Part shown: in pieces, positions 39,001-63,000 of the stretch | Layout of the letters: each line of letters begins with the position of its first letter | Position numbering within the stretch: the stretch's first letter is position 1 | Assembly (NCBI GenBank): GCA_035221665.1 | Contig: CM069151.1 | Coordinates: 18,724,001-18,788,000, forward strand | Source of the DNA: Okamejei kenojei | Lineage: Eukaryota | DNA length: 64,000 nt | Direction: 5' to 3' | Program-made: the position numbers

Positions 39001-42000
39001 AACTGGGTGGGGGGGGTGGACCACGTTGAGAGGATGCAATCGTCACTCCCATCTGTTTATATAATACCTCCCTTTGACGTGTCGCAGTAGTATCCATAAG
39101 GACAGCGCTCATTCTGCTAAAGCCTCCGTACTGTGTTTTTTCCAGCAAGCTTCCACATCCTTCTTTGTAAAAGTTTGACCACTTTGAGACTACAAGAGCT
39201 GAAACAGATGAGAGCTACTAGAAATCGAATGCAGCCTAACACAGGCCATATGTACCACAAGTCCACAACAAAACTGCAATCACCACCTCACACTTGTCTA
39301 ATGTTATCCCAGTTTTCAATCCTGCCCACACTAAGGGCAATTTTACTGAAGCCAATCAAACCTACACAACTGCCAGGGGCTAACCTTAAGTTTTGTAAAG
39401 CTTCACTAACTTCCTGGCTTTATACTCATTGCCTAACTGATTGTCAACATAAATTGTATGCCATCTTTATGCAAAACTCATTCACAAAGTTGCAGCTACT
39501 TGCAGGCATGCCTGTGGACAACGCAGTGAACACTACAAACTCCAAAAACATCATTTCCTTTTTTTCCCAATATATGGTGTTTAACAAACCTGAATTCATG
39601 AATAAGCCGTAGAAGTTAGTATGTGCCAAACTACCAACCACCGTGAAGATCCCTTGCATAGTTAAAATATATTGGCGATGCAGGTTCTCCATGAGGCCTT
39701 TTATATTGATGCCTACTAAAATGATGTAACAATCCCTACTTACGTCATCAATTACCTTGCTGCAAAACCCTCAATCAAGTTTAGTAAAATATGACTGCAC
39801 CAGGCCAAATCATGCAGACCTCCCTAATTTATCTCCAATACTTCCCCAATGCGAGTAAATCTAGCGCAAAGATCCTCCCCCTAATTCTACCCGAGCACTG
39901 ATGTGAGCTCTGGCATAATAATTTCTATACATCATTCCCCATCGTTCACTAAAAGAAACAGTGGCTGCACTCCAGTTCTTTGGGTCATGCCGTGGCTAGA
40001 GGGGGATGTACAACGATTTGTGCACAGGCAAGGCCTGCAAACCGTTATCGTTGAGTGTGTTCTCTCAATAACTGAATAGTGATTCCATTGATGGTGGCAG
40101 GGGATTTATCATTCTTAATTGCGTTTACGAAGAGACTACAACAAACCTCCATCTCCTTTAATCGCAAAGAGCCCTAGCTCATGTTAGTTTTTCTACACTG
40201 TTCTCACTATCCTCCATGTAGTTAATATGTTATCTTATTTTGAGATAATTTGTAGTTTTTAAATATTTGTTTGTTTTTACAGTATGTGCCATGAACGGAA
40301 TCTCTACGTGCCCAACGTAAGTAGACTTTGTTTTGCATTCACTTCGTTCATAGATCAAAATTATGGAATGAATTATCATATTAAGATTTTATATAATATT
40401 GGTCTTGGTCAACATTGCAATTAATAATGTTATTAACGATTATATCCGTGAAATGTTTGTGTGAAAATAACTTGTCCATCCAAATATATGCTAATTAGCT
40501 TACCACGATTAAATCTGCAGCACAAAAATTAATGCAAATGAGTTGATATCATTGCATAGCAGTTATGATTGTTTCTCTTCGAAGATCCCGTTCTATCTTA
40601 TGAGTTCTCTATTTCCACACTCCATCAATGGTTTGAAAAGGAAAATCCATGAAAAAATAAACAGCAAGGATTATGAAACCATAATTCACACTATAATTAT
40701 TGTGTTGTTGTGTTTCTTCTGCTGAAGTTGTGGCAGATGAACTTGACCATAAACAGTTTATGCTCATGTCAATTTAAATCACTACATGTCACTTCTTATT
40801 CACAACCTCATATTGCAAATGCACCCATTCTTTTGAAGGATCAACACATCTGTGATGTTTTTGTTTATTTATTTGTGGAATGAGTATTGCCAGCAAAGTC
40901 AACATTTAAGGCCTAGAAAACCAGCAATGGTAATAGCCATATTTCCAGGCCAATTGGAGTACATGTGAGAGGAGATTTATTTAGGTGGTGGTGCTCTCAT
41001 GCACCTATTGCACTTACCATTTTAGTTAGTAGAGGCCATAGGTTTAGGAGATACTATCACAGAGATTTTAGTGAGCCACCTGCAACTTCCAACATAACAT
41101 TAGTGGTCTTATACATGGCAGATTGTTTGTGCTCTGAATGCAATGAAGCATATTCCCAGGCTCAACAGGGAATGGAGCGGTAGAAAGCAACCATCCAAAT
41201 TGCACTGGAGTTCTTCAGTAATCTGATTAATCACTTGGAACTAACCCAAAATAAACAAAAAAATCATAAAAGACAGTAATAATATGGAATAAAACTTGAC
41301 TTCTCCCATTAGTCATTTTGTCTCAGTTCATTCAGTTGGCATTCTCTCCAGAAATTGATATGGGATATCAGCTTTATTTCCCAGCATGAAGTACAATAGC
41401 AGTTGAGTCACCTGGATGGATGGGCTTTATATGTCGCACTCTGGTTGTCATAACAAAATTTCTTTGGTGCATTAAGCAAAAAAAAAAAAAAACAATGAAC
41501 CTCATATAACACAATGCTTAATAAAGAGCGTGTGTCAAATGTCTAAAATTGATTATGGACCCTGCTTTCATTGTGCGCTATATTTATTATTACAAACAGC
41601 AAAACAACCACACACTGCTACAACAACAGTCACCACACCATCGACAACTACGGGATTTCTTCTAAACCACAGTACATGGTAAAGACAGATCTTAGTTTTC
41701 TATTTTAATAAAGAATCAGTATTTGAGAAGATTAATGCACAATCTTGGCTGAATATTTCCAAATTTTTACCAGACAAAGTGGCATTAATATCTCAGTAGT
41801 CCAAAATTGCGTAACTATCAATAATATTATGAAATTTCAATGATTTTATACTTAAGTTAGGTTTGTGATATTCCCATGAATATCTTGTACCCAATGTCAA
41901 CTTCGGACAGTGCCAGGACATTTAAGATGCAATGACCAACTCATCATGCTCTGGCCATAATCATAAACTTCATCATTCCCTGTATATCTCATGTACTTGC

Positions 42001-60000: not shown

Positions 60001-63000
60001 GAAATTGTTTGTGATTGCACTGACATTCAACTGCTGATTGACAAGGAAAAAGTAATGCAGCCGTATAGTATGGCCGCACGCTTTATTCACTGAAAAGGAA
60101 ATATCGAGTGTAAAATGTTTTATTAAAAGGTGCCAGTTGATAAATTCTTGTTGAAAGATTCTAAACTGCATAACCATTCCTTTGTTTGTTAGTGGAACGT
60201 AACATGTAACATGTTTTTTTATTTCCTAGAAACAACGACATCAAATCTGGGACAACACTACATCTGGTCAGTATTCATCCTCTTTGTTAAAAACCTTTGG
60301 GGGGTCACAGGCAGTGGAAAGTGAGAACGTGCCAATCCAGATAGACAGCACCCGAGGTTAGCATATAGAAACAAATATATACTTATGAGGTTGCAGCTCT
60401 ACCAGCTGACCATCTATGCCAACTCAATCTCTAATGCATGATCGCCTCAATTTTCTGAAAGAAAAGGAAAAAAAAGTAAGAAGAAAAAACGAAAGTGCAG
60501 TAGTAACACCGTTTTCATAAAATATGCCAGTTCATGAATTCCTGTTGATGGCTTTATAACTGCGTACCAATTCTCTTGGCTGCCCCACTTGAATACAGAA
60601 GAAAATGTTTAATGAAGAAAATGACATCTCGTTAAACATTTTCATAAAATGTGCCAGCTCATGAATTCCTTATTGTTCTTATTGCCTGCAATAATTTTTA
60701 AAAGAGCATTGATTCTGGCACCTTTCAGTAGACATGGATAAGGATTTTCACTTTTTATAAAAGGTCTCTTCCGTTCGCCTCTTCCACTATTCAGGGATTT
60801 TTTGGTCATGGCAACACTGTTAAACAGTTTTGTTTCTGCTCAATAATTTTTCAAAAATGGATCAATGAAGGAGTTTAGAACTTTCTTCAAAAAAATCACA
60901 ATTCCCTTTCATAATTTCGTTCCATTTGGTAAATGACGAAGCAAAATGTGGTTAATTTCTAAATGTCCTTGGCTTTGGCACAAACAACGAACATTGTTAA
61001 AATTCAGCCCAGTCTCAGGAAAATGTGCAGTGTCGTACCTAAATTAGTGACTCTTGCAATTCAATATATAAATGCTTTTCTATTTGCTCTCCAGGAACAA
61101 CACCAACAACATCTTTGACAACTGGTACAACTGAGACCACCTCCAGTTCCACAACAGGTGAGTTAAACCACTTTCAATAAACATTGGCAATCTTAGGACA
61201 AACTGGGTTAACATTATAACATCCAGCTCTGTGCTCAATTGTTTTATCTTCACTTAATTATGGGGCATGAATTGGCCAACTATATGTTAGATAATGGCAT
61301 AAAAAAGGACCATAAACAGTGTATATGAAGACGTGTTTCGATATTGCAGGGGTGATACCATATATTAATATTAGACTTTATAAATTATCAAAATAATCGA
61401 TGAGGGTGCAGGATTGTTTAGAGGTCCAGGGAAATATTAATATGTTTTTTTTAATTTATTTTTTTAAATTAGAAATACATAATAAAAAGCAATTTGTTTG
61501 TTATAGTCATACATTATTAATATTATTTATATTAACAATTGTATTGTAATTGTACTTCTTTATATATATATATATTTATATATAGATAGAAAATATGAAA
61601 TAAAAAAGAAAACAAAAAAAAAAGAATGGAGTATTCAATTGATTATGCATCATTGGAGCTATATTGTGGATTATAATATTCTCTCATCTATTCCTTAATT
61701 ATGTTTCAGTCAGGTCTCATGCCGAACCAATTTGCACCCCCTTCCAATTATTCAATAATGGGGACCATATATTTATGAATAGTTCTTGTTTACCCCATTA
61801 ATACGCAACCTTATCTTTCCAATATGTAGGGTCTCCGACATTTCATTGTCCACAGTTTAATGTGGGGGGTTAGGGCCTAACCGATTTTAATCAATTTTTC
61901 AATTATTTAAACTATAAGTGATAAAGTTCTTTGTCGTTGTGATAATTGATTCGGTACCTAGGGTATCTAAATATTATTAATTTGAATTTGGACCAAAAAT
62001 GTATTGACTAAAACTTTCCGAAATGATCTTAAAAATTTCTGTCCAAAAAATTAGTATTACTTTTATACAGCTTACAAATGTGTGAGTAAGATTACATTAA
62101 GTGGTTGACATCCGTTTTCTACAAATAGGGGTTACACATGGAAAAAAGTGTGGTTTAATTTGATTTTTGAATAGTGTGCAATCTCTGTAAACTTTAGAAA
62201 TTCGTAATTAAAGAGTGTCTAGCATTTAAAACAGCTTTTATCCCATAATTTAGACCTCATTTTTTTTTTGGACTAGTCGTTTTCTCATGATTGCTTAATC
62301 TTTCTGTCATCGGGCGCTGCATCATTAATACTATTATAAATATAAGTATCAATTTTTCTGTGTTCAGCGGTGTTTATTCAGGCATTGTCAAGAATTTCTG
62401 TCTTTCGTTCTATTTCTTATAAACCTGTGTATTTGAAACTTTAGCAGGTCGCCTATGATTTGTGTAGATATATAGTCTGTTGAAGAAGCCCGTATACATT
62501 CTGTAGTTCCTGAAATGAAGAAAGGCGAAATTTATCCTAGAAATAGATCTCCACACATACATTTCTTTCTTAATAACCCTGTCCATGTCGGTCCATTTTT
62601 CCATTGTTAAAAAAAAAATAAAACTTTTTATTCATATGATCGGGGGTTTTTTTTTTTGTATTATAAATTTATTATATTTGAGGGTTTAGTAATTTTTTTA
62701 AATGTTATGAGCATTGCTTACAAATGGAGAAGGATTAGTAAACAATCCTATTTTAGCGTCTTCTTTAATTGTTTCGGGAATGAGCGAATTCCACTTTTAG
62801 TCTAATTACTTTGGTGGGTATTAACGTCTTATTATGTATAGGTTTTTTTGCTTAACTTTTAGTTAGTATAGCCAAATCGAATCGGACGACACATTTCAAA
62901 AGGTTTATCAATCTTCCTCATCTTCCATTTTTAACCAATTCTGGTTGTTGTGTCCAGGTTCTTCCATCCAAATTATTCATAATTTTGTAAATTTATAACT

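What the first reader, a model, noticed from the sequence alone, without database searches (positions are those of the whole stretch)
41600..61300. PTS domain built from tandem intron+micro-exon cassettes: a modular glycodomain generator
Seen: about 20 Thr/Ser/Pro-rich exons of 37-79 nt. Order from 44744: X,A,B,C,A,B,C,A,B,B,C,A,B,D,C,A,B,D,A. Each is duplicated together with its intron. The two clean A copies are 63 nt and phase 1-1. Known: MUC2/5AC/5B/6 encode PTS mainly in one giant exon, whereas MUC19 and Xenopus FIM-B.1 use many small exons. Inference: if all cassettes are symmetric, the length and composition of the O-glycosylated domain can vary both by exon skipping and by unequal crossover between intron repeats, without frameshift.
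Basis: partly seen in the sequence, partly recalled or inferred. Interest (0 to 1): 0.8.

Follow-up and report, generated by a model that had tools for sequence, protein, structure and literature searches.

The report
Decaying micro-exon mucin domain, shark-type MUC19
The sugar-carrying domain of a MUC19-like mucus gene from a shark or ray relative is built from about twenty tiny exons copied along with their introns, but most copies here are broken, so this is an ordinary, partly decayed member of a known gene design and not a frame-safe domain generator.

Summary
Downstream of an intact D1-D2-D'-D3 region (11.4-35.2 kb, + strand) of a cartilaginous-fish MUC19-like gel-forming mucin lie 20 Thr-rich micro-exon elements (37-79 nt, 41600-61157).

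Only 3 of 19 elements have a length divisible by 3. Four of 19 lack a canonical AG or GT, and a 20th (D1) lacks both. No reading frame stays open through the array; the longest stop-free run is 6 elements. The first junction (E1-X) makes a stop codon. The last D3 exon (37157-37382) needs at least 3 frame changes and carries a TGA.

The indels are not assembly noise: 1 of 44 lies in a homopolymer, 41 of 44 are not multiples of 3, and about 1,100 upstream codons are clean.

The 3'-most unit (A5-B6-D2-A6) is intact. A5 and A6 differ at 1 of 63 exon positions against 85 of 556 intron positions (p=0.0009).

Best reading: a birth-and-death micro-exon array with a live or recently live 3' edge and dead older cassettes. 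The design and the alternative-splicing idea are already in print for other mucins. The contig is not human.

The parts
11367..35222 (+). D1-D2-D'-D3 region of a MUC19-like gel-forming mucin, in about 25 exon blocks.
   Evidence: tblastn with Mobula hypostoma mucin-19-like P0008 is colinear over residues 35-1152, with no gap above 3 residues and no stop or frame change inside a block. Pfam finds C8, TIL and VWD on single exons. I did not check the splice sites of each block.
37157..37382 (+). Last D3 exon, broken.
   Evidence: It is 226 nt (mod 3 = 1) where relatives require a phase 1-1 exon. Colinear ungapped matches to 6 relatives sit in frames 1, 2, 0 and 2, with an in-frame TGA. Gapped identity is about 32%, against 81-89% for the two preceding exons.
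41600..41678 (+). E1, first PTS exon. 79 nt, AG/GT intact, Thr-rich frame open.
   Evidence: It resembles the start of the PTS region in batoid relatives. It enters in phase 1, the same phase in which the exon ending at 35222 leaves.
44744..44799 (+). X, a divergent B/C-like element of 56 nt.
   Evidence: The E1-to-X junction codon is a stop.
45559..45622 (+). A1, 64 nt. One extra base breaks the Thr-rich frame.
46857..46911 (+). B1, 55 nt. GA at the homologous donor position.
47385..47428 (+). C1, 44 nt, AG/GT intact.
48052..48118 (+). A2, 67 nt. Four indels relative to A5.
50995..51046 (+). B2, 52 nt. Donor is GA; stops in 2 of 3 frames.
51521..51564 (+). C2, 44 nt. The Thr-rich frame has a stop at its 5' end; an alternative AG at 51526 would give 38 nt.
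52185..52249 (+). A3, 65 nt. Donor is GC.
52999..53054 (+). B3, 56 nt.
54076..54125 (+). B4, 50 nt. TG at the acceptor position.
54877..54926 (+). C3, 50 nt.
55592..55663 (+). A4, 72 nt. Divisible by 3, but internal indels of 5, 2 and 2 nt break the Thr-rich frame.
56312..56361 (+). B5, 50 nt. Stops in 2 of 3 frames.
56791..56812 (+). D1 relic. No AG before it and no GT after it.
57187..57226 (+). C4, 40 nt.
58139..58446 (+). Ghost cassette: a pre-B intron segment fused directly to a post-C intron segment, with the B and C exons deleted.
   Evidence: 58139-58440 aligns to the sequence that ends 8-51 nt before B1-B6. From 58444/58446 the alignment continues at a point 79 nt past the C1 and C2 donors.
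58968..59030 (+). A5, clean. 63 nt, phase 1-1.
59711..59763 (+). B6, clean. 53 nt, phase 1-0.
60230..60266 (+). D2, 37 nt, phase 0-1. In that phase it is not Thr-rich.
61095..61157 (+). A6, clean. 63 nt, phase 1-1. Last element seen before the window ends.

Best explanation
The window holds the 5' part of a MUC19-like gel-forming mucin gene of a cartilaginous fish.

Structure. After an intact D1-D2-D'-D3 region, the O-glycosylated PTS domain is encoded by micro-exons of four related classes (A, B, C, D), not by one large exon. Each micro-exon sits in its own 0.5-3 kb intron.

Growth of the array. It grew by tandem duplication of intron-plus-exon blocks. It was later remodelled by deletions and exchanges between paralogous intron segments.

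How the design works (inferred from the intact unit and from relatives). Each micro-exon adds 12-21 Thr/Ser-rich residues. Only the A exon is symmetric (63 nt, phase 1-1). B leaves in phase 0 and D restores phase 1. The frame-neutral module is therefore the multi-exon block (A+B+D = 153 nt = 51 codons), not the single cassette.

State of this copy. The array is in a birth-and-death state. The 3'-most unit, A5-B6-D2-A6, is intact, and A5/A6 have been held by selection or by exon-limited gene conversion. The older cassettes (44.7-57.2 kb) have gained non-triplet indels, stops and splice-site substitutions at the intronic rate and are pseudo-exons. The last D3 exon is also broken.

Consequence. 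The locus as assembled cannot make a mucin by constitutive splicing. Either it is a decaying paralogue, which I favour, or it must skip the broken D3 exon and at least 7 of the 19 elements.

Shown: the anatomy, lengths, frames, splice dinucleotides, divergence statistics and homology.
Inferred: the order of events, selection on A5/A6, and pseudogene status.
For: Gene identity:
- 38 of 43 candidates match the D3 exon 32924-33217 at E<=0.001. Of these, 25 are named mucin-19 or mucin-19-like. The best are chondrichthyan, with identity up to 74% (Mobula).
- Pfam finds VWD, C8 and TIL on 5 of 6 exon ORFs tested.
- The window is colinear with P0008 residues 35-1152.

Array and co-duplicated introns.

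Decay:
- 3 of 19 lengths are divisible by 3, and 15 of 19 elements have AG..GT.
- Each of the three start frames hits 5-10 stops across the 19 elements.
- The longest stop-free run of consecutive elements is 6 of 19, and E1 to X is closed.
- Against the cleanest copy of each class there are 44 indel events. 41 are not multiples of 3, and 1 lies in a homopolymer of 4 or more.
- The gap-opening rate in exons equals that in introns: 0.062 against 0.050-0.057 per aligned nt, and 0.025-0.045 against 0.027-0.035 in long pairwise alignments.
- In the oldest pair of units, exon identity (93/158) is below intron identity (947/1420).
- The last D3 exon is broken.

Live edge:
- A5 vs A6 is 62/63 in the exon against 471/556 in the intron, Fisher p=0.0009, with 0 exon gaps.
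- The single exon difference leaves the predicted peptide unchanged.
- A5-B6-D2-A6 is an open, phase-consistent chain.

Family-wide design:
- The Thr-rich frames of A5, B1 and B6 match the PTS of batoid relatives (E 2e-7 to 8e-8, local blastp-short against the 38 proteins).
- The gene models of Mobula P0008 and Stegostoma P0003 end by reading from an A-type exon through its donor into an intron start like the window's (E 1.5e-6 and 6.8e-5).
- The PTS of relatives has a base period of about 20 residues and higher-order periods of 54-69 residues.
Against: - With exon skipping allowed and only canonical sites used, an open path from E1 to A6 through 11 further elements exists. A coding transcript is therefore not excluded.
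- Skipping the broken D3 exon keeps the frame into E1's Thr-rich frame.
- Exons are more alike in substitutions than their introns in 4 of 5 long pairwise alignments. The exon plus the first 40 intron nt are the best-conserved part of every class. This shows past constraint, and possibly present constraint.
- The D1-D3 exons look fully intact, which is unexpected for an old pseudogene.
- No transcript data and no orthologous DNA could be examined.
- The higher identity of the exons may partly reflect their A/C-rich composition.
Confidence: 0.7

Rival explanations
1. The gene is alive. Its transcripts use only a subset of the elements (for example E1, then a C- or A-type exon, then A5-B6-D2-A6 and more beyond the window). 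The rest are silent pseudo-exons inside long introns, and the broken D3 exon is skipped.
For: An open path exists when skipping is allowed. Skipping 37157-37382 preserves the frame, because both neighbouring exons are in phase 1. A5/A6 exon conservation gives p=0.0009. Intron starts are conserved. The D1-D3 region is intact.
Against: The open paths read several elements in frames that are not Thr-rich. Dropping the last D3 exon removes cysteine-rich sequence that all 6 relatives compared retain. E1 cannot join X, B-type exons or A5 in frame.
Confidence: 0.2
2. The frame problems are assembly errors in a repetitive region. The real cassettes are clean and possibly symmetric.
For: Repeated kb-scale units are hard to assemble, and the window has one N run (15521-15675).
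Against: 1 of 44 exon indels is in a homopolymer of 4 or more. 12 of the 13 copies compared also differ from the clean copy by 3-9 substitutions; A6 differs by 1. Splice-site losses are substitutions (GT to GA twice, GT to GC, AG to TG). Copies differ by 12-32% overall, so they are old paralogues and not collapsed reads. About 1,100 codons of D-domain exons in the same assembly have no frame error.
Confidence: 0.07
3. The elements are not exons at all, but a dispersed A/C-rich repeat or transposon fragment that happens to translate as Thr-rich.
For: The introns contain many repeats, and some families shown are purely intronic.
Against: All elements lie on the gene's strand, directly downstream of D3. 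15 of 19 are flanked by AG and GT with pyrimidine tracts. Their Thr-rich frames match the PTS of relatives, and the models of relatives read through the same donor. There are no Thr-rich stretches on the other strand or elsewhere in the 64 kb.
Confidence: 0.03

Closest known systems
MUC19 / Muc19 (gel-forming mucin; several paralogues in Chondrichthyes)
   Same: N-terminal VWD-C8-TIL x3 architecture. The best database matches are named mucin-19-like (25 of 38). Three Muc19 paralogues are reported in Callorhinchus milii (PMC4948705, passage read). No CysD or D4 sequence was detected in the window.
   Different: Here the micro-exons are mostly broken. Human MUC19 is described as having a large central repeat exon, and as lacking a complete ORF in long-read haplotypes (PMC13345508, passage read). 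Identity to every fetched relative is only about 52-58% over the N-terminal blocks, so no true orthologue was in hand. The C-terminus lies outside the window.
Chicken Muc13 PTS domain (Lang, Hansson, Samuelsson 2006, PMC1552070)
   Same: [quoted passage not shown] The authors already proposed that alternative splicing could set PTS length (abstract and passages read).
   Different: It is a transmembrane mucin with nearly identical exons. Here there are four exon classes, mostly asymmetric phases, and a gel-forming mucin.
MUC2, MUC5AC, MUC5B, MUC6
   Same: Same protein superfamily and the same D1-D3 module.
   Different: [quoted passage not shown] Here no Thr-rich stretch exceeds 27 codons.
Xenopus integumentary mucins FIM-B.1 and FIM-C.1
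   Same: Skin mucins whose size polymorphism is attributed to alternative splicing (stated for FIM-C.1 in PMC7177656, passage read). FIM-B.1 has vWD domains (same paper).
   Different: The exon structure of FIM-B.1 was not verifiable in the papers held; the word 'exon' does not occur in PMC7177656.
Tandem small-exon arrays such as the titin PEVK exons (recalled, not checked here)
   Same: Arrays of short exons duplicated with their introns that encode low-complexity sequence and are differentially spliced.
   Different: An unrelated protein. As I recall, those exons are symmetric, which most exons here are not.

Membership tests
Gel-forming mucin / VWF-type D-assembly proteins | Three N-terminal VWD-C8-TIL units | tested here: met
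   Pfam hits for C8, TIL (x2) and VWD (x2) on 5 of 6 exon ORFs. tblastn is colinear over residues 35-1152 of P0008.
Gel-forming mucin / VWF-type D-assembly proteins | A PTS (Pro/Thr/Ser-rich) domain following D3 | tested here: met
   15 Thr-rich stretches, all downstream of D3 on the + strand. They match the PTS of relatives. The domain is not continuously codable as assembled.
MUC19 subfamily | Closest relatives are MUC19 rather than MUC2/5/6 | tested here: inconclusive
   25 of 38 hits are named mucin-19(-like). Two are named mucin-2-like, one mucin-6-like and two mucin-5AC(-like), at similar identity. These are automatic names. No tree was built, because that would need a joined model.
MUC19 subfamily | No fourth VWD unit and no CysD in or after the PTS; C-terminal VWC plus cystine knot | not testable with these tools
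   The window ends 2.8 kb after A6. No C-terminal or CysD match was found inside the window (best E for the Pristis C-terminus is 0.83; 0 of 613 HSPs fall outside 11-37.4 kb).
Multi-exon (micro-exon) PTS design | Short PTS-coding segments, each bounded by AG and GT and separated by introns | tested here: met
   15 of 19 elements have AG..GT. Introns are 0.5-3 kb. The models of relatives read through the A-type donor.
   3 of 19 lengths are divisible by 3. Only A5 and A6 are also open in the Thr-rich frame.
Pseudogene / decaying paralogue | Frame-breaking lesions in exons that relatives conserve | tested here: met
   The last D3 exon needs at least 3 frame changes and has a TGA. E1 to X makes a stop. 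Splice-site substitutions occur in 4 elements. The upstream blocks, about 25 of them, are intact, so the decay is regional.

The most novel reading that the evidence does not exclude
Chondrichthyan MUC19-like genes may build their glycodomain from three-exon, frame-neutral modules that turn over by birth and death. New modules would be copied at a selected 3' edge while older ones rot in place into intronic pseudo-exons. A short intronic element just after the A-type donor, shared by the paralogous copies here, would be needed for these micro-exons to be recognised. The same element appears to show through in the read-through tails of a ray and a shark gene model. If so, mucin length and composition in these fish evolve by module turnover within one gene, not by VNTR slippage within one exon.
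Probability: 0.3. Interest if true: 0.5.

Novelty: new member of a known kind. Interest (0 to 1): 0.3.

Why it matters
It documents at base resolution how a mucin domain can be assembled from duplicated intron-plus-micro-exon blocks in a cartilaginous fish, and what such an array looks like while it decays. It also gives a practical warning. Annotation pipelines tend to stop inside these arrays: two fetched gene models of relatives end by intron read-through. Apparent 'modular' exon arrays should be tested for phase and integrity before a splicing-based diversity mechanism is claimed. It does not open a new question, because multi-exon PTS domains and the idea that splicing sets their length are already in the literature.

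Tried and rejected
- Tandem Repeats Finder found only five short arrays and no cassette array, because the units are kb-sized.
- Rfam at gathering thresholds gave 0 matches in the window.
- A search for C-terminal (VWC / cystine-knot) or CysD exons in the window found nothing significant.
- The PTS micro-exons translate to only 12-26 residues, too short for the database searches. I compared them only locally, exon by exon, with the 38 fetched proteins.
- I built no spliced (joined) model and searched with none. I therefore made no whole-protein tree, fold or family scan of the window's gene.
- A majority-rule 'master copy' test showed A5 and B6 nearest the consensus in introns as well as exons. 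I rejected it as evidence of selection, because the young clade dominates the majority.
- The 30-nt and 46-nt segments ending in a shared donor-like motif at 56858-56873 and 60346-61 are not Thr-rich. I did not count them as exons.
- Literature: Zhu et al. 2011 on human MUC19 is not held. A search for MUC19 exon counts gave 0 papers. The claim that MUC19 and FIM-B.1 use many small exons therefore stays unverified.
- Orthologous DNA could not be fetched. None of them was queried.
Supplementary figure S1 of PMC4948705 (Muc19 genomic context) might bear on paralogue identity.
- The structure, complex and atlas tools were not used, because no claim here depends on them.

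
Full report
WHAT THE WINDOW IS

The window is eukaryotic, and I do not take it for human. A stop-free ORF at 32924-33217 matches 38 proteins at E<=0.001 out of 43 candidates. 25 of them are named mucin-19 or mucin-19-like. The best are from sharks, rays and a chimaera, with identity up to 74% (Mobula hypostoma P0008). Single-exon ORFs carry C8, TIL and VWD domains in 5 of the 6 tested.

tblastn with P0008 is colinear on the + strand from 11367 to 35224. It covers residues 35-1152 in about 25 blocks. 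No stop or frame change falls inside a block, and no gap exceeds 3 residues. I did not verify each block's splice sites.

The only N run (15521-15675) lies between two blocks whose residues abut (176-201 and 200-233). No exon seems hidden there, and I left it untouched. Identity to every fetched relative over these blocks is only about 52-58% for chondrichthyans. This is therefore a divergent paralogue, or a lineage not represented among the hits. Lang et al. 2016 report three Muc19 paralogues in Callorhinchus milii (PMC4948705, passage read).

THE OBSERVATION

Self-blastn of the window shows that 44.8-61.3 kb is made of kb-scale direct repeats at 68-88% identity that run through both exon-like and intronic sequence. 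Seeding nhmmer with the cleanest copies recovers 20 elements, all on the + strand. E1 is at 41600.

A 19-nt core motif occurs 10 times against 0.03 expected. All 15 Thr-rich stop-free stretches of the whole window fall in these elements, and the minus strand has none. Lengths span 37-79 nt. A5 (58968-59030) and A6 (61095-61157) are 63 nt and phase 1-1. The descriptive part of the finding is therefore correct.

THE CASSETTES ARE NOT SYMMETRIC, AND MOST ARE BROKEN

I placed boundaries by homology to the clean copies.
- Lengths by class:
  - A: 64, 67, 65, 72, 63, 63
  - B: 55, 52, 56, 50, 50, 53
  - C: 44, 44, 50, 40
  - D2 37, X 56, E1 79
- Only 3 of 19 lengths are divisible by 3.
- 15 of 19 elements keep AG..GT. 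B1 and B2 have GA and A3 has GC at the homologous donor, and B4 has TG at the acceptor. D1 (56791-56812) has lost both sites.
- Following phase by arithmetic, each of the three possible frames meets 5-10 stops across the 19 elements.
- With junction codons checked inside a script that printed names only, the longest stop-free run of consecutive elements is 6 (B5 to A6). E1 in its Thr-rich frame cannot be followed by X, because the junction codon is a stop.
- Against the cleanest copy of each class there are 44 indel events. 41 are not multiples of 3, and only 1 lies in a homopolymer of 4 or more. 12 of the 13 copies compared also carry 3-9 substitutions; A6 differs from A5 at 1 position.
- Gap openings are as frequent in exons as in flanking introns: 0.062 against 0.050-0.057 per aligned nt, and 0.025-0.045 against 0.027-0.035 in long pairwise alignments.
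- In the two oldest units, exon identity (93/158) is below intron identity (947/1420).

These are the marks of neutral decay, not of assembly noise. The same assembly shows no frame error in about 1,100 codons of D-domain exons.

THE LESION UPSTREAM OF THE ARRAY

The exon that should finish D3 (37157-37382) is 226 nt, where relatives require a phase 1-1 exon. Its colinear ungapped matches to six relatives lie in frames 1, 2, 0 and 2, and it contains an in-frame TGA. Gapped identity is about 32%, against 81-89% for the two exons before it.

The exon ending at 35222 leaves in phase 1, and E1 enters in phase 1. Skipping the broken exon would therefore keep the frame, at the cost of cysteine-rich sequence that all six relatives compared retain.

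WHAT STILL LOOKS ALIVE

A5-B6-D2-A6 is a phase-consistent open chain: 63 nt phase 1-1, 53 nt phase 1-0, 37 nt phase 0-1, then 63 nt. A+B+D is 153 nt, or 51 codons.

A5 and A6 differ at 1 of 63 exon positions, and the predicted peptide is unchanged. Their flanking introns differ at 85 of 556 positions (Fisher p=0.0009). Across all classes, the exon and the first 40 nt of the downstream intron are the best-conserved parts of the cassette: for A, 0.74 and 0.69 against 0.38-0.52 elsewhere (a rough binned measure). The cassettes were therefore real, constrained exons, and the youngest may still be.

With skipping allowed and only canonical sites used, an open E1-to-A6 path through 11 further elements exists. 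It reads several elements in frames that are not Thr-rich.

THE DESIGN IS FAMILY-WIDE

- The Thr-rich frames of B1, B6 and A5 match the PTS of Rhinoraja and Pristis relatives (E 8e-8 to 2e-7 in a local search of the 38 proteins).
- The gene models of Mobula P0008 and Stegostoma P0003 end by reading from an A-type exon end through the donor into sequence like the window's intron start (E 1.5e-6 and 6.8e-5).
- Four more chondrichthyan models end in GE, SE or RE right after PTS sequence. That would fit the same read-through, but I did not test it (listing).
- PTS regions of relatives have a base period near 20 residues and higher-order periods of 54 (Mobula), 58 (Pristis), 61 (Stegostoma) and 69 (Narcine). 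A relative with a fourth VWD has a plain 8-residue repeat.

This fits blocks of about three micro-exons as the amplified unit. Exon structures of relatives could not be seen.

HOW THE ARRAY EVOLVED (INFERRED)

Three junctions point to exchange or deletion between paralogous intron segments.
- 57875-58131 is repeated at 58484-58739 (85%).
- 58139-58440 is a pre-B intron segment that runs straight into post-C intron sequence at 58444/58446, with the B and C exons missing.
- After D2, the pre-C segment ends at about 60598 and post-C intron resumes at 60668, again without a C exon.

B3 and B4 are a local tandem pair. These events removed or added exons without regard to frame.

COMPARISON WITH WHAT IS KNOWN

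- MUC2, MUC5AC, MUC5B and MUC6 carry the mucin domain in one big exon (PMC9712336, legend of Figure 9).
- A PTS domain spread over multiple exons, each a repeat unit, and the proposal that splicing could set its length, were published for chicken Muc13 (PMC1552070, abstract and passages).
- Size polymorphism through alternative splicing is stated for Xenopus FIM-C.1 (PMC7177656, passage).
- I could not verify that MUC19 and FIM-B.1 use many small exons. My searches found no such statement, and Zhu et al. 2011 is not held. This remains recollection.
- One preprint passage notes that human MUC19 has a large central exon and no complete ORF in long-read haplotypes (PMC13345508).

LIMITS

The micro-exons were compared exon by exon, and only locally.
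- No transcript data were available.
- No orthologous DNA was available.
- No supplementary files could be read.
- The C-terminus of the gene lies outside the window, and 61.3-64 kb shows no further element.

VERDICT

This is a real micro-exon PTS array in a MUC19-like gene, and a new member of a known kind. The 'symmetric modular generator' reading fails its own test here. The locus is best read as a birth-and-death array: largely decayed, with an intact 3' unit.

Noticed in passing
window 59031-59070, 61158-61197, 45623-45662, 48119-48158: The first ~40 nt of the intron after A-type exons are almost as conserved among copies as the exon itself (0.69 vs 0.74, against 0.38-0.52 elsewhere). They also appear in translated form in the read-through tails of a ray and a shark gene model. 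This may be an intronic splicing element for micro-exon recognition.
   Followed up: partly
window 37157-37382: The last D3 exon of the mucin gene is broken (at least 3 frame changes and a TGA), while all upstream D-domain blocks are intact. The decay starts between 35.2 and 37.2 kb.
   Followed up: yes
window 48400-50650: An insertion of about 2.2 kb in the A2-B2 intron, with a G/T-rich low-complexity core (GC skew +0.37 at 48-50 kb). It contains a 365-codon stop-free frame on the minus strand with no Pfam match. This explains the longer A2-A3 spacing.
   Followed up: partly
window 42-1166 (-): A LINE-type reverse-transcriptase ORF (RVT_1, E 3.7e-30). Further retroelement tails lie at 5075-5425 (+), 28767-29144 (-) and 57533-57916 (-), the last with an exact 30-nt tandem duplication at 57818-57877.
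   Followed up: partly
window 61300-64000: An AT-rich stretch (29-33% GC) with no similarity to the cassettes and no Thr-rich frame. The array either pauses or is interrupted here before the window ends.
   Followed up: no
window 15521-15675: A run of 155 N between two D1 exon blocks. The flanking blocks cover adjoining residues of the relatives, so no exon seems to be missing. Left as it is.
   Followed up: partly
window 56858-56873 and 60346-60361: A shared 16-nt donor-like motif lies downstream of D1 and D2. It is preceded by sequence that is not Thr-rich, and I did not count it as an exon. It may be a relic of a C-type exon end or part of an intronic repeat.
   Followed up: no
proteins P0001, P0003, P0008, P0009, P0010, P0014 (relatives): Several chondrichthyan mucin-19-like gene models stop inside the PTS region, two of them by demonstrable intron read-through. 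Among the PTS-bearing chondrichthyan models whose C-terminal 60 residues were listed, only Pristis P0016 ends in cystine-knot-like, cysteine-rich sequence. Automatic annotation seems to break on these micro-exon arrays.
   Followed up: partly
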